64,000 bases of DNA, from assembly GCA_963666315.2 (NCBI GenBank), contig CAXXHG010000021.1, positions 64,001 through 128,000 on the forward strand. The letters are read 5' to 3'. This DNA comes from Candidatus Binatia bacterium (GTDB lineage Bacteria; Desulfobacterota; Binatia; Bin18). Made by a program: the position numbers and the translations under genes. How positions within the stretch are numbered: the first letter of the stretch is position 1; the number at the start of each line of letters is the position of its first letter. The notes under the pieces are model-generated. The model searched no databases, was not told the DNA's origin, and was given only the letters and a program-made list of their open reading frames with translations. Below, one piece after another: positions 42,416 to 49,275 of this stretch.

Positions 42416-43576
42416 TCACACAGCCCCGAAGACCTGCTCGACCGCATCCCGGATGGGCTGAAAAACATCACCTGGGGTGTTGGTCATCCGGTTGTGACAA
42501 ATGGCGACCGCCAGGCGGGCATCCGGGTCGGCCCAGGCAATCGCTCCCCCTGCGCCCGGATGGAAGATCGTGCGGGGATTGTGACCAGCCAGACGGAACG
42601 GATAGCGAGGATCTTTCACTCCACCGAGCCACAGTCCTGCGGTCCCCATGCGGATCGGCAAACCGAGGACAGTGTCCGGCTTATCAGTATCCGGGCGCGG
42701 AGTGCTGAAAGTGTTGACCCGCTCTTCGGACAATAAGCGTACGCCGTTTAGCTCACCGCCGTTGGCCAGCATTGCGAATAGCCGGGCTGAGCTGCGCGCG
42801 TTCATGATACCGTGCGCGCCTGGGATACACCCGCCCCGCATATCAGAACGTCCAAAGACCTCCTCGGTCGCGCCGACCTGAGGCGGCATAGCTAGGAGTA
42901 TCGGCGCGTCTGCCGGCAGTGGGAGTGGAGCGGCGTTCTTGAGCCGGGCGACGCGTGGTTCTACTTCTTCAGGAATACCAATCCAGAGATCGGTGATCCC
43001 CAGCGGGGCACAGATTTCTTCCTGTACAAAGGTGCCATACGGCCGCTGTTTGGGATCGGTCAGGCGCACACACTCGGCAATCACCCAGCCGAAGGTGTAA
43101 CACATGTATCCATTCTCGGTTCCGGGCTCAAAAGCGGGCTTCATGCGTGCTAATTGATCGACCATCCAGCCGTAGTCACTCATGAGCTCCGGCGTGACGC
43201 CCTCGGGCATGAAGGGAATACCCAAACGGTGGCTCAATGCGTCCCGGATGGTGGCTTTGTCCTTGCCGTGCGAGGCGAACTCGGGCCAGTAGTGAGCGAT
43301 AGGCGCATCATACTCGATCAGGCCACGCTCGGCTTGGAGATGCAGCGCGGTTGCCGTGGTCGCCTTGATCACGGAGAAGGAGGGGAAGAGAGTGTCAGCA
43401 TCAACCTCTCGCCCGGTGGTTTCATCGGCAATGCCGCTCCAGACGTCTACGACTTGTTCGCCATCAAGATAGACGGCGACCTGTATGCCCAGCTCGCCGT
43501 TCTCACGGATCGTGGTTTCAATGGCTTTTTGAAAAATGTTATTCGCTTCTGGTTTGTTTTCTGCTGTCGCTGCCAT
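42416..43576 (-). CDS. Serine hydrolase, beta-lactamase-like esterase
   Basis: SxxK (FSVIK), IAHYWPEF, LSHRLG, HPGAGG. Confidence 0.9.
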   Translation of the reverse strand: MAATAENKPEANNIFQKAIETTIRENGELGIQVAVYLDGEQVVDVWSGIADETTGREVDADTLFPSFSVIKATTATALHLQAERGLIEYDAPIAHYWPEFASHGKDKATIRDALSHRLGIPFMPEGVTPELMSDYGWMVDQLARMKPAFEPGTENGYMCYTFGWVIAECVRLTDPKQRPYGTFVQEEICAPLGITDLWIGIPEEVEPRVARLKNAAPLPLPADAPILLAMPPQVGATEEVFGRSDMRGGCIPGAHGIMNARSSARLFAMLANGGELNGVRLLSEERVNTFSTPRPDTDKPDTVLGLPIRMGTAGLWLGGVKDPRYPFRLAGHNPRTIFHPGAGGAIAWADPDARLAVAICHNRMTNTPGDVFQPIRDAVEQVFGAV

Positions 43577-43737
43577 AGATTATTCCCCCCTTTTCTCTGA
43601 CTTACGCGCCTTGCTGCCGTTTTGACTGCCTCTGGCTGTTATCCTCTTTTCTGGAAGAGGGAGTCAATAGTGCCGGAGCGCCTTTTTGGCAAGGAGAAAC
43701 GTGCATCGCTATCCGTTTGCGCGCTCTTTGCTATTGG

Positions 43738-43757
43738 CATCAGATCCGATACATGAA
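43738..43757 (+). repeat. att core, left copy: CATCAGATCCGATACATGAA
   Basis: Identical to 49256-49275. Confidence 0.9.
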
Positions 43758-43925
43758 TACAACCTGTGAGATTCCAATAACTTAGCGGGGTGTGGTGTGC
43801 AGAATGCCGCAAAGCGGCGCACAATCCGCAACCTATCCGTAACTAACTCTCTGTGATGTTCTTCCGTTCATAGCCGTTTTCGATGTAGATAAACCGCCAC
43901 CACCGAGCGCTGCTTCATCGCGGAC

Positions 43926-43962
43926 GTTTCAATCCTCACTGGCCCGGTAAGGCCGGTGCTAT
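43926..43962 (-). CRISPR. Solitary CRISPR-like repeat (type I-C-like), no array
   Basis: Minus strand ATAGCACCGGCCTTACCGGGCCAGTGAGGATTGAAAC: 37 nt, CACCGGCC/GGCCAGTG stem, canonical GGATTGAAAC 3' end; no second copy found. Confidence 0.7.
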
Positions 43963-44178
43963 AGCCCATGTTCCAAACCATTAATCCGGCTAGGGTTTTT
44001 ATCTCGTTTGCGCGGACGTAAGAAAAATGGGCTAAAATCCAAACGTCCATCCTGTCTCTTGCGGCCTTGGTGGGCATCTCACCGGGACGCACCCCCTGGT
44101 ATGTATTAACGCAGCGAGTGAGCATCTGAGGGATATTTGCTCATCGAGAAACCGCCTAACTTCTGCTAGGAAGGACCC

Positions 44179-44871
44179 GTGAAATACATCCCGACCATCA
44201 TCACGGTAGTGTTGCTGTTGTGGCCGTTGCCGGTATCTCCCAGTGAGGTAGGCATTGAATGGGACATCCTGAATGAGGAAGCGCAGCAGCTGTATGATAA
44301 GGGCCAATATGGCCGTGCCGTCATAGTTGCCAAAAAGGCCCTTGAAGTAGCAGAGAAAAACGTCGGCCCACACCATCCCGCTGTGGCGACGAGCCTGAAC
44401 AACCTGGCTGAGCTCTACCGAACCCAAGGCCACTACGCGCTGGCCGAGCCGCTCTATAAGCGTGCGCTGGCGATATACGAGCAGGCGCTGGGGCCAGACC
44501 ATCCCCATGTGGCTGCGAGCCTGAACAACCTGGCTGAGGTCTACCGAACCCAAGGCCACTACGCGCTGGCCGAGCCGCTCTATAAGCGGGCGCTGGCGAT
44601 AGTCGAGAAGGCGCTGGGGCCAGACCATCCTAATGTGGCTGCGGGCCTGAACAACCTGGCCTTGCTCTACTCCACCCAAGGCCACTACGCGCAGGGCGAG
44701 CCGCTCTATAAGCGGGCGCTGGCGATAGGGGAGAAGGCGCTGGGGCCGGCCCATCCCGCTGTGGCGACGAGCCTGAAAAACCTGGCCTTCCTTTATCCAG
44801 CCATGAAACGGGATCGGGAAGCCGCAATACTGGAGCAGCGGGCGGCTCGTATACAAGCGATTCAACGATGA
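44179..44871 (+). CDS. Secreted tetratricopeptide repeat protein (kinesin-light-chain-type TPR)
   Basis: Signal peptide; 42-aa repeats GPDHP.VA.SLNNLAE.Y..QG.YA.AEPLYKRALAI, seen as 126-bp near-identical DNA repeats. Confidence 0.92.
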   Translation: MKYIPTIITVVLLLWPLPVSPSEVGIEWDILNEEAQQLYDKGQYGRAVIVAKKALEVAEKNVGPHHPAVATSLNNLAELYRTQGHYALAEPLYKRALAIYEQALGPDHPHVAASLNNLAEVYRTQGHYALAEPLYKRALAIVEKALGPDHPNVAAGLNNLALLYSTQGHYAQGEPLYKRALAIGEKALGPAHPAVATSLKNLAFLYPAMKRDREAAILEQRAARIQAIQR

Positions 44872-44928
44872 CCTCTGTCACTGCTGGATGCACCAGGGAA
44901 TAGTTGGTGAGCATCGACACTCTCGAAA

Positions 44929-45775
44929 TTACGGGAACTCGAAGATCAGTACGTCCGCGTAGAATATATTGAAGGGCTCCAAGAAGTTCAGAGTGGTTAT
45001 GTTACCCCCAATGTCAACAGTCGTCTGTTTTGTCAGGCCAGACAAAACCGTATCGCACACACCGTCTAGCGTGTTGCGGTCGAACCAGTCAAACGAGGAC
45101 GAACTGAATTGAACGCCTCCTTGGACGAAATCGAGACGTCCACTACAGGCGAAGAACCCGTCAGACGTGAGGGGTGTAATATCGATAACGAGTGTCTCGC
45201 CGTCACAGGGATTGGTGACAACCCACGTTGCTTGTTCAGCAACGGAACCCAATACGCCAGAGTCGTCGTCAACTGTCGCTGTTTTCGTGACACACAGGCC
45301 ACTCGGAGCAGGCGGATTTGCTTGCGTATACCCTGTCGCTATAAATCCCTGCGCCCCCTGAGACCACTGGACTGTGACGTCCTGTCCGTTGCTGAGCGTC
45401 ACCACCCCAGTCCCAGACACGCCAGTCAGGAATTCCACACCCGAAGTCACAACCTGAAACGTCACCGTGGCAATCTTGACGCCATCCCGAAAAAACTCTG
45501 CGGTATGTGACCCTTGCCCGAGTAGGTTGTAGTTGAAAATGGAGACGATACCATTGTTTGGATCGGTGCAGGGCGTATCGAGTCGTTCCGATCCATAGGA
45601 CAGTTCTATGATGCTTCCACCATCAAACTGCACGGTGTACACGCCCGGTATGCAGTCCCAAGCGGATATGACAAAGATCCCGCTCATCACCCTGTCCTGC
45701 TCCTGGAATACCGACGGTGAGGGTGTGCACGGGAGCAGCAATTAGGCACAGTAGAATCAATAGTACCGCGCGCAC
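44929..45775 (-). CDS. Secreted beta-rich protein, paralog A (frameshift just after the signal peptide)
   Basis: RBS plus GTG at 45775 gives MRAVLLILLCLIAAP...IPGAGQ; frame changes near 45692 into MSGIFVISAWDC...NNGIVSIFNYNLLGQGSHT. Confidence 0.65.
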
Positions 45776-46065
45776 AGTGATCCCCTTCTGGTTTTGTATC
45801 TCTGTTAGTCTCGTTCAGCGGCCGGTGGCCATGAGCACCGTTGCGAACAGACTAAGACTCGGCCCTCCCGAGTGTCAACGGGTGTCTCCGGCGGTCCGTT
45901 TGCCCGTTGTGAAAATTCGCGGGACTTTCACGGGGATTCGGAGAGAACTGGGCGTACTATCCGGGACCGTAGAGGCGCTTTTCATGCCGAAAAGTCTAAA
46001 AAAGCCACATTTTCCAGCTGCCTAAAGGGCTCTACATAGCGCGAGCACTCTAGTTGAAGATATCC

Positions 46066-46105
46066 TCTCGTGGTGTGGTGACCATATGGTCACCACACCA
46101 CGAGA
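46066..46105. repeat. Perfect 40-bp palindrome with no loop
   Basis: TCTCGTGGTGTGGTGACCAT|ATGGTCACCACACCACGAGA. Confidence 0.95.
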
Positions 46106-46262
46106 CGTGAAAACATGTCCGCTCTGCGCAGAGACGATCAAAGCGGCCGCTCTGAAGTGTCGCTACTGTGGCTCTGACTTGGCGAAAGCTTCGGAGTTAA
46201 CGCCAAGTCAGATTGCTGGAGAGGATTGGGGAACGCAGCGCACGTTGCTTCGGTGGGAGTGA
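46086..46262 (+). CDS. Small zinc-ribbon (UPF0547-like) protein, 58 aa
   Basis: MVTTPRDVKTCPLCAETIKAAALKCRYCGSDL...; below the ORF-track cutoff. Confidence 0.6.
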   Translation: MVTTPRDVKTCPLCAETIKAAALKCRYCGSDLAKASELTPSQIAGEDWGTQRTLLRWE

Positions 46263-46438
46263 GAAGGTCAGCAATTCCCTATGACCCAGTGCTACATGCT
46301 TACCTTTCTGTGTGCAGGGGGAGAAGACGCACAACCGCCCGGTGCCGGTAACTCGTTACTCACTCCGTGACGCATCTACCATCGCGTCCAGTACATCCCG
46401 GACCGGGTCAGGGCCCGGCTCGTCCAGGGAAACTGCAC

Positions 46439-47322
46439 TTATGCCGCCTCCACGGATCCGGAGTACCCGATAAAACAAGGAAGAGACAATCCGGCGCAGG
46501 ATCCACTGACCCGATCCGCCAGTATGAGAAAGACCAGGGATCCGTCCAGAAAATTACCAGCAAAACCAGCTATCAACGCGTACGTACACGATTCCGCCGT
46601 GCTCACAGAAGCCTCGCCGACGAGAACAAAGTCTCCATTCATTTCGAGATCGCCGGTGAAGGTGGACGAGCCGCTCAGGACGGTAAGTGCACTGCCGTTC
46701 TGGGACACGGAAAGTGTTCCACCGAGCTGGGTGGGCAGATCGGGGGGTACCTCAATAAAGTTACAGTCTTCGGTCAGGAACGAGAGCGACATTGCCCAGG
46801 TGCCAGCGACATTTGGAAACCCCGGGTCCGGGGTTGGAATCACCGGGCCCGGGGTTGCCTCTGTCACGACAAATGCTTGGAGTGATTGCCTCCACGTCAG
46901 CGCTGCTGTCGATCCATCCGACAGGGTGGATGTCCCTGACCCGGTCATGCCGGTTTTGAATTCCCCGAGCCAAAGTGGACAACCTGAAAGGTGACGGATG
47001 CAAAACTCGCGGCTCCATCAAAGGCTTGGAAGGTATGAGTACCTTGCGAGAGCCGATTAAAATTGTACTGGGCAATCCAGCCGTTGTTGGTGTCATTGCA
47101 GACACTCTCCGTATCCGGACGATCAATGAGACCGGCGAGAGGGAAAGCTGCCCCTCCGTCGATCCGCCCACTCAATGCCCCTTGGGCACATTTCCACCCG
47201 GCGAAAAAATAAATCCCGCTCATCTCTTCGTTGGCGCCCGGCACTTCAATGACACTCGCTGTCGCTGTGCCCATCCACATCAGCGCACCGATGATTCCAC
47301 ATAGTACTCGCGTTTGCATCAT
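46439..47322 (-). CDS. Secreted beta-rich protein, paralog B (frameshift in a G-run near 46965)
   Basis: Signal peptide; MSGIYFFAGWKC...NNGWIAQYNFNRLSQGTHT...VTFQVV | EFKTGMTGSGTSTLSDG...WRQSLQAF. Confidence 0.7.
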
Positions 47323-47553
47323 GCCCCCCTTAAACGCCGTACGAGAATCTCTTACGTGGGTAAATGATTTCACAGGAACGTTCCGCTTCTGGCCCAGGTC
47401 AGTATACACACAGACTTTGGCAGAAACCAACGGAAAGAGCGGAATAAGCCCCCCTATATTCGCTTATTTCGCTGTGGAAGGCGCAATATCACCGAGTGAT
47501 GCCACTCGTCGTACTGCGGAACCCCATTCTTCTTGGCCGGGTTAGAGGCGGGG

Positions 47554-47796
47554 CTACGAGGTGGACGAGCGCCTCTTCTCCTCGCGGTATCGTTTCACGC
47601 GGTTTTTCCGGCGCTTGACGGCATGCCGTTGGTAATCCGCTCGGGCGCTGCAGGCAGGGCGACAATAGCGCTTCTGCCGGACCCCCTCGAACGTTTCGCC
47701 GCAGACCGGGCAAACCTTTTTCACGATGACGATTTTTTTCGTATAACTCCGGGGCTGAATCACCCGCTCAATCACTCTAATTTGTTCCTCTGCCAT
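47554..47796 (-). CDS. Small basic Cys4 zinc-finger protein, divergent from the integrase
   Basis: CPVCGETF...RYCRPAC plus Arg/Lys-rich tail; GGAGG RBS. Confidence 0.65.
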   Translation of the reverse strand: MAEEQIRVIERVIQPRSYTKKIVIVKKVCPVCGETFEGVRQKRYCRPACSARADYQRHAVKRRKNRVKRYREEKRRSSTS

Positions 47797-48042
47797 TTCG
47801 CCGCGTCCTCCGCAGTGAAGATAGATTCTGTTCGCCCTAATGTCAACGTATTTATTAAAATATCCTCGACATTATCGTTCAGGTAATTTATAATGATCTT
47901 GTACTATACAGACGAGAACACACCCGTGCAGAAACCACACCGAGATAGGACACGCGGAAGGTGAGATGCCGCCCAGCGAATAGATTTTTATACGTAGCCC
48001 GTGGCTGAAGCGGCTAATGTGACGAAAGTCAGGAGGTAAACT

Positions 48043-49212
48043 TTGGCAGTAAAAGTTCGCAAACGGAAAGAGCTGTGGTGGGTTTACATTGACCACAACA
48101 ACAAACGCAAGGCCAAGTGCATCGGCCCCAGTAAACGGGCGGCTGACCAAGTGGCGGAGAAGATTCGGGCGAAGCTGGCACTGGGGCAGTTCTCGCTTGC
48201 TGAAGAAGACGCGAAACAGGCAGTCAGCTTCGCTAACTATTACGACCGCTGGCTCAATACCTACGTCGCAGGTTCTGCCAAGCCCAGCACGATGGTGGCG
48301 TATGAATGTGTCGGGCGGTTGTATTTACTTCCGGCGTTTGGCGATCGGCTGTTGCGCGATATTGCGCCGAAGGATGTCCGTGCCTTTGCGTACGGTTTGG
48401 TGGCCACGCAACTGAAGCGCAATACGATCATGAGTATCCTGATCCCGCTCAGCAGCATATTTCGGTTCGCCGTGAAAGACGAGCTGTTGCTCCGTAATCC
48501 GGCCGGCGGCATTGCAGGTGAGATTGGCAGTGCAAAGCAATCCGACCAGCGCCCGGCTGACTTTCTCACCAAGGAGGAACTCGGAGCCCTGCTGCGCTGC
48601 TGCCAAGAGTATTTACCGGTTCGGTATCCCTTCATCTCCCTCTTGGCCAAGAGTGGCTTGCGTATTGGGGAAGCCCTGGCGCTGGAATGGGTCGATATCG
48701 ACTTCGACGGGCGTTTTATCCACGTCAGCAAGACCGCAGACAGGGGTCGGATCGGTAGCCCGAAAAATGGCAAATCACGGCGCGTCGATATGAGCCAGGG
48801 CCTCGCTGACACATTGAAGCGGCTTCGTGTGACGCAAGGCAAACGTGCGCTAGAAAGTGGGGTACCGGCACCCCGGTTGCTCTTCCCAACGAGATCGGGC
48901 CGACTAATGGATCGGACAAACGTCTACCGCTGTATCTGGGGCCCACTCTTGAGGAAGGCGGGATTTCGGCAGATCCATGTCCATGATCTCAGGCATACGT
49001 TCGCAAGCCTGTTGATCCAGAACGGTGAATCCCTAGCCTACGTGAAAGAGCAGATGGGCCATAGCTCGATCAAGATGACGGTGGACACCTACGGGCACCT
49101 CGTACCGGGTGGCAACAAAGCGGCTGTGGACAAGCTGGATGGGCTGGAAGAGGCAACCATCCGCAACCCAGCCGCAACCGGCGGCTGTGAGCGAAAATAC
49201 GAAGCTGGCTAA
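48043..49212 (+). CDS. Site-specific tyrosine integrase
   Basis: Catalytic R (GLRIGEA), K (PKNG), HxxR (HDLRH), H (MGHS), Y (DTYGH) all intact; AGGAGG RBS and TTG start. Confidence 0.95.
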   Translation: MAVKVRKRKELWWVYIDHNNKRKAKCIGPSKRAADQVAEKIRAKLALGQFSLAEEDAKQAVSFANYYDRWLNTYVAGSAKPSTMVAYECVGRLYLLPAFGDRLLRDIAPKDVRAFAYGLVATQLKRNTIMSILIPLSSIFRFAVKDELLLRNPAGGIAGEIGSAKQSDQRPADFLTKEELGALLRCCQEYLPVRYPFISLLAKSGLRIGEALALEWVDIDFDGRFIHVSKTADRGRIGSPKNGKSRRVDMSQGLADTLKRLRVTQGKRALESGVPAPRLLFPTRSGRLMDRTNVYRCIWGPLLRKAGFRQIHVHDLRHTFASLLIQNGESLAYVKEQMGHSSIKMTVDTYGHLVPGGNKAAVDKLDGLEEATIRNPAATGGCERKYEAG

Positions 49213-49255
49213 GTTACTGAAAGAATTCGGATATTCGAGAATGATCGACACATTA

Positions 49256-49275
49256 CATCAGATCCGATACATGAA
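49256..49275 (+). repeat. att core, right copy: CATCAGATCCGATACATGAA
   Basis: Identical to 43738-43757. Confidence 0.9.

What the first reader, a model, noticed from the sequence alone, without database searches (positions are those of the whole stretch)
43860..44110. Solitary CRISPR repeat with leader-like flank inside the mobile element: candidate RNA anti-CRISPR or mini-guide
Seen: one 37-nt repeat (43926-43962, minus strand, ends GGATTGAAAC, 8-bp stem with one mismatch) about 170 bp inside the left att. Its 5' side has A/T tracts and a tttgcgcggac motif resembling type I-C leaders. No second repeat and no cas gene occur in the window. Known: solitary repeat units on mobile elements can act as RNA anti-CRISPRs (Racrs) by sequestering Cas proteins, and MGE mini-arrays can borrow host Cascade. 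Inference: this small non-phage element may use a leader-repeat RNA to blunt or redirect host type I immunity, with GTCCGCGATGAAGCAGCGCTCGGTGGTGGCGGTTT as a possible spacer. It could also be a relic of a deleted array.
Basis: partly seen in the sequence, partly recalled or inferred. Interest (0 to 1): 0.75.

Follow-up and report, generated by a model that had tools for sequence, protein, structure and literature searches.

The report
Lone CRISPR leader-repeat on integrase island
A small mobile island in this bacterial genome carries a genuine but isolated piece of a type I-C CRISPR array (part of the leader plus one repeat), most likely a captured passenger fragment, although a role as an RNA decoy against CRISPR immunity cannot be excluded.

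Summary
Window 43926-43962 (-) is a real type I-C CRISPR repeat: a full-length match to Rfam CRISPR-DR9 and 33/37 identical to array repeats of the same genus. The 78 nt upstream of it (43963-44040, -) are homologous to the repeat-proximal leader of those arrays. The unit lies 169 bp inside a 5.5-kb tyrosine-integrase island bounded by perfect 20-bp direct repeats. A related organism in a public run has the empty site.

The functional reading is not supported:
- No second repeat, even a degenerate one.
- No protospacer for the flank.
- No type I-C cas gene or Cas1 in the 92%-complete host assembly.
- No promoter or RNA evidence.
- The nearest homologous island has other DNA at this position.
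- The leader lacks the conserved distal motif, and each hairpin carries one pair-breaking change.

Against a long decay, 21 of 23 invariant proximal leader positions are kept.

Best reading (about 0.5): a recently captured, currently idle CRISPR fragment in a mosaic island. A Racr-like decoy or spacer-less mini-array, active only in I-C-positive hosts, stays possible (about 0.3).

In passing: the same repeat is scattered singly in most cas-less genomes of the genus, often directly before gene starts.

The parts
43738..43757 (.). attL: left copy of the perfect 20-nt direct repeat CATCAGATCCGATACATGAA
   Evidence: family D8, 100% identity, spacing 5518.
43758..43843 (.). Conserved island end (arm-type region), shared with paralogous islands and with the G009 island
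   Evidence: C39 84%, C32 78%, C19 74%. G009 is conserved up to 43843 and then diverges. G020:C264 77%.
43844..43897 (.). 54-nt module also found at own-genome C37:23928-23981 (96%) in an unrelated context
43891..43925 (-). Spacer-like 35 nt directly 3' of the repeat; no protospacer and no downstream repeat. Its last 7 nt overlap the 54-nt module
43926..43962 (-). Solitary type I-C CRISPR repeat, 33/37 identical to the genus array repeat, with a C8.A23 stem mismatch
43963..44040 (-). Repeat-proximal 78 nt of a type I-C leader. It holds the motif at 43993-44016 and a weakened leader hairpin at about 43972-43994. The conserved distal leader motif is missing
44044..44178 (.). 135-nt non-coding module upstream of the TPR gene, shared with G020:C145 (89%, other flanks) and with G009 from 44098
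44179..44871 (+). TPR_12 repeat protein (230 aa), island cargo
   Evidence: TPR_12, E 2.7e-62.
46086..46262 (+). Small zinc-ribbon protein (58 aa). Its start overlaps the second arm (46086-46105) of a perfect 20+20-nt palindrome (46066-46105)
   Evidence: I1; UPF0547, E 5.5e-8.
48043..49212 (+). Tyrosine integrase (389 aa)
   Evidence: Phage_integrase, E 2.3e-27; SAM-like N-terminal domain.
49256..49275 (.). attR: right copy of the 20-nt direct repeat. The empty-site contig of a relative resumes exactly at 49256
   Evidence: table 5: run X2 joins 43649 to 49256 with 68 letters between.

Best explanation
The feature is a fragment of about 143 nt (about 43898-44040) from the leader-proximal end of a type I-C CRISPR array: 78 nt of leader, the first repeat and a short 3' flank. 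It sits as one module among several short shuffled non-coding modules at the cargo edge of a 5.5-kb tyrosine-integrase island. It was most likely picked up by recombination while the island, or one of its modules, lived in an I-C-bearing relative, and was then carried into this genome. This genome has no I-C Cas proteins, so here it is an idle passenger. Without Cas5c the repeat cannot be processed. Without Cascade there is nothing to sequester or guide. Without Cas1-Cas2-Cas4 nothing can be inserted at the leader-repeat junction. Shown: the identity of the fragment, its solitary state, the island and its empty site, and the lack of cas genes in the assembly. Inferred: capture by recombination and present inactivity.
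For: The repeat and leader are homologous to real I-C arrays. tblastn with seven G002 Cas proteins found nothing in the host, and no Cas1 (PF01867) was found; my k-mer scan for arrays found only two tandem repeats that are not CRISPR. There is no second repeat and no protospacer. The leader is cut off: the distal motif AACGAnTTTCTCGTT, nearly invariant in the 9 other leaders aligned, is absent, and 8 of the 10 lost invariant columns lie there. Each structured element has one pair-breaking change: the repeat at C8.A23, and the covarying leader hairpin (by my reading of alignment A1 the window row supplies unpaired cells). The nearest island, in G009 (95% DNA identity over the integrase gene and right flank; same insertion site), diverges exactly at 43843/43844 for at least 214 nt, and its other contig starts at the equivalent of 44098. 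G020 shares 44044-44178 with different flanks, so the CRISPR piece is a separable module. None of 80 loci around homologous integrases has such a repeat. Of the 13 places that matched the leader motif in 10 of 56 genomes of the order, three look like chance matches, and all the rest except ours stand before arrays of 3 or more repeats, one of them of another repeat type. So this is a one-off, not a conserved design. Decay of I-C loci is seen in the genus: G019 keeps cas2, the leader and 3 repeats, while its Cas8c is missing and cas1 is missing from beside cas2.
Against: The fragment is well kept for junk. It retains 21 of 23 columns that are invariant in the proximal leader of 8 array leaders, although its overall identity to those leaders is only 39-48 of 78-79 compared positions. 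Three of its four repeat differences lie at positions that also vary among real repeats. That pattern fits a recent capture, but it equally fits maintained function. The assembly is 92% complete, so a cas locus could have been missed. Contigs with similar repeats flanking spacers exist in the same public runs (table 5c), so I-C-bearing neighbours are at hand. Expression was not tested with any usable data.
Confidence: 0.5

Rival explanations
1. Racr-like RNA decoy. The island transcribes the solitary repeat. In hosts that have type I-C, Cas5c and Cascade subunits bind this spacer-less, 3'-handle-less RNA and form dead-end complexes. That would protect the island on entry. In the present cas-less host it is silent baggage.
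For: It is a solitary, intergenic repeat on a mobile element, and it keeps the 11-nt 5'-handle part AGGATTGAAAC and a foldable hairpin. A type I-C Racr (RacrIC1) has been validated experimentally (PMC10651486, passages read). I-C systems with nearly the same repeat occur in 4 of 27 other genomes of the genus. The invariant proximal leader positions are kept.
Against: The host has no cognate Cas, whereas about 90% of SRU-bearing prophages sit in CRISPR-positive hosts and 83% of those match the subtype. No promoter or terminator was predicted around it. The stem carries a C.A mismatch at a position that is a standard pair in all 9 other sequences of the alignment (by my reading of A1 the window row supplies the one unpaired cell). 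It is absent at the equivalent spot of the nearest island. No acr-like or aca-like neighbour was recognised. None of 269 spacers from relatives' I-C arrays matches the island, so no I-C pressure on it is shown.
Confidence: 0.22
2. Spacer-less, acquisition-competent mini-array (a 'blank' array or adaptation decoy). A leader-repeat junction carried by the island can receive spacers from a host Cas1-Cas2-Cas4. It would either seed an island-borne array for competition between elements or divert new spacers away from the host array.
For: The leader-repeat junction and 21 of 23 invariant proximal leader columns are retained. Virus-borne mini-arrays with host-like leaders are known, and were proposed to take up spacers through host adaptation proteins (PMC6858448, passages read).
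Against: It holds zero spacers. The conserved distal leader motif is missing. There is no Cas1 in the host. No sibling copy with one or two spacers was found: the viral and metagenome scans gave 0 matches for this repeat variant and for the leader motif.
Confidence: 0.08
3. A cis-acting module unrelated to Cas proteins: a hairpin or promoter element reused by the island, as the dispersed copies of the same repeat in the genus seem to be reused as 5' untranslated regions.
For: In 17 of the 28 loci examined from genus genomes (two of the 28 are from the own genome), an ORF of at least 70 aa starts 0-24 nt after the repeat. These fall into 6 site families: GYD, FtsJ-like, hydantoinase A, luciferase-like, a signal-peptide protein, and one doubtful ORF. 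The minus-strand transcript direction points out of the island towards the beta-lactamase-family gene 42416-43576.
Against: No ORF of at least 70 aa starts within 80 nt after our repeat. The next gene start is 350 nt away, across attL. No promoter was predicted. Ours alone carries a leader, which the dispersed copies lack.
Confidence: 0.1
4. Mini-guide or regulatory crRNA-like RNA. The 35 nt after the repeat act as a (pseudo)spacer that directs a borrowed Cascade to a competitor element or to a promoter.
For: The position of the flank directly after a repeat. crRNA-like regulators and viral copies of them are described (abstracts only seen in the listing: 10.1101/2024.10.29.618823 and 10.1101/2024.12.27.630466).
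Against: There is no downstream repeat or pseudo-repeat. The best match in the own genome is 23/35 and lacks a TTC motif (the I-C PAM, recalled). Nothing better was found in the array-bearing loci searched, the G002 cas locus among them. There are 0 matches at up to 3 mismatches in 54 other family genomes, none in the phage collection, and only repeat-part matches in plasmids.
Confidence: 0.03

Closest known systems
Solitary repeat units (SRUs) / RNA anti-CRISPRs (Racrs), including RacrIC1 (Camara-Wilpert et al. 2023, PMC10651486)
   Same: A single CRISPR repeat, without other repeats or cas genes, in an intergenic stretch of a mobile element. It is of subtype I-C, for which a Racr has been shown to work.
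   Different: It is carried by a small integrase island, not a virus or plasmid. It is preceded by a true leader fragment (the word 'leader' does not occur in that paper). The host assembly lacks the cognate system. No promoter, no expression and no neighbouring acr gene are shown. The stem carries a mismatch.
Virus-borne mini-CRISPR arrays with host-like leaders (Medvedeva et al. 2019, PMC6858448)
   Same: A leader homologous to cellular array leaders, carried by a mobile element that has no cas genes.
   Different: Those arrays have 1-2 spacers between repeats, and their spacers target related viruses. Here there is one repeat, no spacer and no target. In that study the stand-alone repeats had no recognisable leader, so this combination is not described there.
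Orphan or decaying CRISPR arrays after cas loss (for example G019 in this genus: cas2 + leader + 3 repeats)
   Same: A leader plus a few repeats without effector genes, with a few degenerate positions.
   Different: Ours is not at a former cas locus (no cas remnant within 1.5 kb). It lies inside a bounded mobile island, and its leader is truncated.
crRNA-like regulatory RNAs (CreA / crlRNA mini-arrays)
   Same: CRISPR-repeat-derived non-coding units outside normal arrays.
   Different: Those have two (pseudo)repeats around a pseudo-spacer partly complementary to a promoter, and they usually lie beside cas genes. None of this is found here.

Membership tests
Type I-C CRISPR repeat (Rfam CRISPR-DR9 kind) | Sequence and hairpin match to the repeat family | tested here: met
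   Full-length match 1-37/37, E 3e-4, but 28.4 bits is below the gathering score of 45. It is 33/37 identical to repeats of real arrays in G002, G014 and G019. The hairpin folds at -11.7 kcal/mol.
Type I-C CRISPR repeat (Rfam CRISPR-DR9 kind) | The cognate arrays belong to a type I-C cas operon | tested here: met
   The G002 array follows cas3, cas5c, cas8c (Csd1, 633 bits), cas7c (Csd2), cas4, cas1c and cas2.
CRISPR array | Two or more repeats separated by spacers | tested here: not met
   One copy in the window and in the genome. No degenerate second copy within the 166 nt downstream.
CRISPR array | A leader next to the first repeat | tested here: met
   78 nt are homologous to array leaders, including the motif at 43993-44016. 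The distal motif is missing.
Racr / SRU on a mobile element | Solitary repeat, intergenic, on a mobile genetic element | tested here: met
   The island has an integrase, 20-bp direct repeats and an empty site in a relative. The only ORF over the repeat is an 85-aa frame without family hits.
Racr / SRU on a mobile element | The host carries a CRISPR-Cas system of the matching subtype | tested here: not met
   No I-C Cas homologues and no Cas1 in the 92%-complete assembly. In the genus, 4 of 27 other genomes have Cas8c.
Racr / SRU on a mobile element | Expressed as a small RNA from its own promoter | tested here: inconclusive
   No sigma-70-like promoter or terminator was found by the simple scan. 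The only RNA run laid consists of contigs and does not cover the unit.
Racr / SRU on a mobile element | Binds Cas proteins and inhibits interference | not testable with these tools
   This needs an interference assay with cognate I-C Cas proteins.
MGE-borne mini-CRISPR array | One or two spacers that match related mobile elements | tested here: not met
   There is no spacer bounded by repeats, and the 35-nt flank has no match.
crRNA-like regulatory RNA (CreA / crlRNA) | Pseudo-repeats around a pseudo-spacer partly complementary to a promoter, beside cas genes | tested here: not met
   No second pseudo-repeat. No seed-plus-PAM match in the own genome or in the G002 cas locus. No cas genes nearby.
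Tyrosine-recombinase integrative island | Integrase next to one end, flanking direct repeats, and an unoccupied site in relatives | tested here: met
   the X2 contig joins 43649 to 49256.

The most novel reading that the evidence does not exclude
A small integrase island carries a spacer-less 'leader plus one repeat' unit as a portable CRISPR interface. In type I-C hosts it would be transcribed and would titrate Cas5c/Cascade (a leader-driven Racr). It might also offer Cas1-Cas2-Cas4 a decoy or seed site for integration. The retention of 21 of 23 invariant leader positions would then reflect selection rather than youth. Together with the many single I-C repeats kept in front of genes in cas-less relatives, this would mean that in this lineage CRISPR repeats have a life outside arrays.
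Probability: 0.2. Interest if true: 0.65.

Novelty: new member of a known kind. Interest (0 to 1): 0.33.

Why it matters
If the unit is only a passenger, it is a clean example of how pieces of CRISPR arrays travel on small islands into genomes that have no CRISPR-Cas. Such pieces could seed new arrays or confuse array-based host assignment in metagenomes. If it is active, it would extend RNA anti-CRISPRs from phages and plasmids to minimal integrative islands. It would also show a leader-containing form that has not been described in the two papers I read passages of. The wider pattern seen in passing may be the more rewarding lead: single I-C repeats conserved directly before gene starts in most cas-less genomes of the genus.

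Tried and rejected
Protospacer hunt. The 35-nt flank was searched against four sets.
- Own genome, seed plus full length: best 23/35, no PAM.
- 55 family genomes at up to 3 mismatches: only the window's own copy.
- Phage collection: no match.
- Plasmid collection: only weak matches of the repeat part to Thermus and Deinococcus arrays.

Other copies elsewhere. The degenerate repeat pattern gave 0 matches in viral contigs. The exact repeat variant and the leader motif each gave 0 in metagenome contigs.

Conservation in homologous islands. Of 80 integrase loci from genome contigs, only one is close (L058, 96% aa identity, a 3.5-kb contig). None of the 80 has the repeat at up to 12 mismatches.

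Targeting of the island by relatives. I extracted 269 unique spacers from I-C arrays of G002, G007, G008, G014, G019, G032, G035, G036 and G037. None matches the island. The only good hit in the own genome is a tRNA-like sequence.

Expression. The RNA run X20 gave only TPR-repeat pieces from other organisms, and no cover of the unit. This shows nothing either way.

Protein reading. The 85-aa ORF 43868-44125 (-) across the unit has no Pfam or PHROG hit and was dropped.

Second own-genome copies. C18:35703 (7 mismatches) and a truncated copy at C19:41579 were looked at. Their neighbours gave no mobile-element or cas signal.

The whole leader-repeat RNA folds no better than shuffles (z -0.57).

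Supplementary files of the Racr paper, which list the SRUs, were not opened; they might hold leader-bearing SRUs that I could not see.

Full report
**What is there**

Window 43926-43962 on the minus strand reads ATAGCACCGGCCTTACCGGGCCAGTGAGGATTGAAAC. It occurs once in the window (no match in 100 shuffles) and once in the 4.99-Mb, 47-contig assembly.

Rfam's CRISPR-DR9 model matches it end to end (1-37/37) at 28.4 bits, E 3e-4. This is below the family's gathering score of 45. Scored over the whole genome, E is 5.8e-4.

Far stronger evidence comes from relatives. Arrays in same-genus genomes G002, G014 and G019 repeat GAAGCACCGGCCTTAACGGGCCGGTGAGGATTGAAAC, and G007 has a close variant. Ours differs at four positions:
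- Positions 1 and 2, which also vary among real repeats.
- Position 16, in the loop.
- Position 23, where G to A turns the C8-G23 stem pair into C.A.

The hairpin still folds, but at -11.7 instead of -17.9 kcal/mol.

**The array type**

In G002 the array lies directly after cas3, cas5c, cas8c/Csd1 (633 bits), cas7c/Csd2, cas4, cas1c and cas2.

**The leader**

The sequence 5' of our repeat (minus strand, 43963-44040) aligns with the repeat-proximal leader of the arrays of G002, G007, G014 and G019. It also aligns with arrays of other genera of the family and order: G035, G078 and G037. The shared core is TCCGCGCAAACGAG-NN-AAAAACCC, at window 43993-44016. It is followed by a hairpin that covaries among the array leaders:
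- 94% of cells are paired.
- 7 of 15 pairs carry changes on both sides.
- The covariation score is 0.39 against 0.17 in shuffles, and 0.007-0.13 when the partners are slid.

Of 31 columns invariant among eight array leaders, ours keeps 21. Eight of the ten losses lie in the distal part, where a near-invariant palindromic motif (AACGAnTTTCTCGTT) stands in all nine other leaders and is simply absent from ours. In the proximal part, 21 of 23 invariant columns are kept.

Overall identity of our leader piece to any sampled leader is only 39-48 of 78-79 positions. That is as low as comparisons between genera. The donor array is therefore not among the genomes searched.

**The island**

A perfect 20-nt direct repeat (CATCAGATCCGATACATGAA) lies at 43738-43757 and 49256-49275. 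A tyrosine integrase gene (48043-49212, +) ends 44 nt inside the right copy.

In public run X2, a contig of a roughly 92%-identical relative joins 43649 to 49256 with 68 other letters between. This is an unoccupied site, and its right edge is exactly the start of attR. Contigs identical to the window across attL, the repeat and the leader exist in runs X1 and X3 (table 8), so the junctions are not an assembly artefact. These runs may include the source sample.

Besides the integrase, the island encodes:
- A TPR_12 protein.
- A 58-aa zinc-ribbon protein whose start overlaps a perfect 40-nt palindrome.
- Several ORFs without family hits.

It is not a phage, and no acr- or aca-like gene was recognised.

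**A mosaic edge**

The left end of the island is built from short modules that recur elsewhere with other neighbours.
- 43758-43843, the arm-type end, recurs in own contigs C39, C32 and C19, in G009 and in G020.
- 43844-43897 recurs at own C37, 96% identical.
- 44044-44178 recurs in G020:C145 at 89% with different flanks, and in G009 from the equivalent of 44098.

The CRISPR-derived piece fills the gap, about 43898-44040.

The nearest island, in G009, has an integrase gene and right flank about 95% identical in DNA, and the same insertion site. It follows ours up to 43843 and then continues with at least 214 nt of unrelated sequence to its contig end. Its next contig starts at the equivalent of 44098. 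At this position the closest relative therefore carries other DNA. Whether a leader-repeat lies further inside its assembly gap is unknown.

**Tests of the functional readings**

1. Cognate Cas.
   - tblastn with the seven G002 Cas proteins finds nothing in the host genome.
   - The Cas1 profile finds nothing either.
   - My k-mer scan for arrays found only two tandem repeats that are not CRISPR.
   - The assembly is 92% complete, so absence is likely but not proven.
   - In the genus, Cas8c is found in 4 of 27 other genomes.
2. Mini-guide.
   - There is no second repeat. The best 37-mer downstream has 21 mismatches, the mode of shuffles.
   - The 35-nt flank has no protospacer in the own genome (best 23/35) or the array-bearing loci searched, the G002 cas locus among them.
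   - It has none in the 54 other family genomes at up to 3 mismatches.
   - It has none in the phage or plasmid collections.
3. Expression.
   - The simple scan predicts no promoter or terminator in 43500-44300.
   - The one RNA run laid does not cover the unit.
4. Recurrence.
   - None of 80 loci around homologous integrases has the repeat.
   - The leader motif matched 13 places in 10 of 56 genomes of the order. Three look like chance matches.
   - The others, except ours, stand before arrays of three or more repeats, one of them of another repeat type.
   - The viral and metagenome scans returned nothing.
5. Pressure. None of 269 spacers taken from relatives' I-C arrays matches the island.

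**Weighing**

Several things argue for a captured fragment that does nothing in this host:
- It is alone.
- Its leader is truncated.
- It carries one disruptive change in each of its two conserved hairpins.
- No Cas partner is present.
- It has no counterpart in the nearest island.
- It sits in a patchwork of shuffled modules.

Its good preservation at invariant leader positions argues that the capture is recent or that something keeps it. I cannot tell these apart. I put about 0.5 on the passenger reading and about 0.3 on a CRISPR-related role that shows only in I-C-positive hosts: 0.22 for a Racr-like decoy and 0.08 for a blank array. I put 0.1 on a Cas-independent cis role, and very little on a guide.

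**Comparison with what is known**

Solitary repeat units on viruses and plasmids are established as RNA anti-CRISPRs, including a type I-C one. About 90% of SRU-bearing prophages sit in CRISPR-positive hosts, and of those 83% match the subtype (PMC10651486, passages read). That is unlike our host.

Virus-borne mini-arrays with host-like leaders are known, while the stand-alone repeats in that study had no recognisable leader (PMC6858448, passages read). A review repeats both points (PMC11656645, passages read).

A leader fragment joined to a single repeat on a bacterial integrase island is thus a new example with an unusual make-up. It is not a new kind of system. I made two literature searches. 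I did not find this combination described, but the supplements that list SRUs were not opened.

**Seen on the way**

The same I-C repeat is scattered singly or in pairs through 20 of the 24 genus genomes searched. I left out G002, G007 and G014, which have arrays. Of the 24, only G018 has Cas8c.

In 17 of the 28 loci examined, an ORF of at least 70 aa starts 0-24 nt after the repeat in crRNA sense. The sites recur across species:
- A two-repeat unit with a conserved 33-35-nt spacer-like insert lies before a GYD-domain gene. This counts for eight loci; G006 carries the unit too, but its GYD gene starts about 50 nt further on.
- A single repeat abuts the GTG start of an FtsJ-like methyltransferase gene in three loci.
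- Single repeats also lie before a hydantoinase A gene (two loci), a signal-peptide protein (two loci) and a luciferase-like monooxygenase (one locus).
- The last of the 17 is a doubtful ORF in the own genome.

Type I-E-like arrays end right at the GYD unit in G011, G025 and G026. The own genome lacks the repeat at the three orthologous sites I could check and has no close GYD homologue.

This looks like old CRISPR repeats kept, or reused, as 5' untranslated elements. It deserves its own study.

Noticed in passing
Loci L035, L038, L039, L040, L042, L046, L050, L053, L055 (genus genomes G017, G018, G026, G023, G025, G011, G006, G005, G015): A two-repeat type I-C unit with a conserved 33-35-nt spacer-like insert lies just before a GYD-domain gene in nine species, eight of them without Cas8c. 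The repeat's TTGAAA, then 18 nt, then a conserved TACAAT/TATAAT, looks like a promoter, so the second repeat would be the 5' UTR. In G011, G025 and G026 a long type I-E-like array ends right at this unit.
   Followed up: partly
Loci L014, L041, L051 (FtsJ-like gene); L036, L054 (hydantoinase A); L010, L043 (signal-peptide protein); L037 (luciferase-like monooxygenase): Single I-C repeats end 0-17 nt before the start codon of chromosomal genes at orthologous sites in two or three species each. The repeat's GAGGA sits where a ribosome-binding site would be. L051 keeps the hairpin through two G.U wobbles, which fits selection on the RNA in crRNA sense. The own genome lacks the repeat at three of these sites.
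   Followed up: partly
Alignment A1 (leaders of I-C arrays of G002, G007, G014, G019, G035, G078, G037, and of the G027 array, which has another repeat type): The I-C leaders of this order share a distal palindromic motif AACGAnTTTCTCGTT, a proximal motif CGCGCAAACGAG-NN-AAAAACC, and a 7-bp hairpin with compensatory changes 10-30 nt before the first repeat. This may be a recognition structure for adaptation or transcription.
   Followed up: partly
L145 (G019:C1:2947218-2950241) and L143 (G027:C1:2025551-2028574): G019 keeps cas2, a leader and a 3-repeat array, but no Cas8c, and cas1 is not found beside cas2: a decaying I-C locus. G027 has an I-C-type leader in front of an array of a different repeat (...CATTGAAGC).
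   Followed up: partly
window 45902-46109, and own-genome C19:41349-41551, C19:49246-49448, C14, C24, C27, C46: A non-coding element of about 208 nt that ends in a perfect 40-nt palindrome (46066-46105) is repeated in the genome. Its first 47 nt occur in at least six more places. In C19 one copy lies 28 nt from a truncated I-C repeat and near a tRNA 3' fragment.
   Followed up: partly
window 44099-44157 (+), inside module 44044-44178: A conserved hairpin-bearing non-coding module lies upstream of the TPR gene. It has a weak Rfam Chlorobi-1 match (14 bits, E 0.62, not significant). It is shared at 89% with G020 in a different context.
   Followed up: no
window 44337-44786: The TPR gene holds three tandem 126-nt units (79-85% identical). 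In the public runs many contigs of other organisms pile up here, which inflates depth.
   Followed up: no
L160 (G036 array) against own-genome C29:29328-29359 and C26:50-81: One spacer of a relative's I-C array matches tRNA-like sequences in the own genome (30/32 and 29/32). It probably derives from an element that carries a tRNA 3' fragment.
   Followed up: partly
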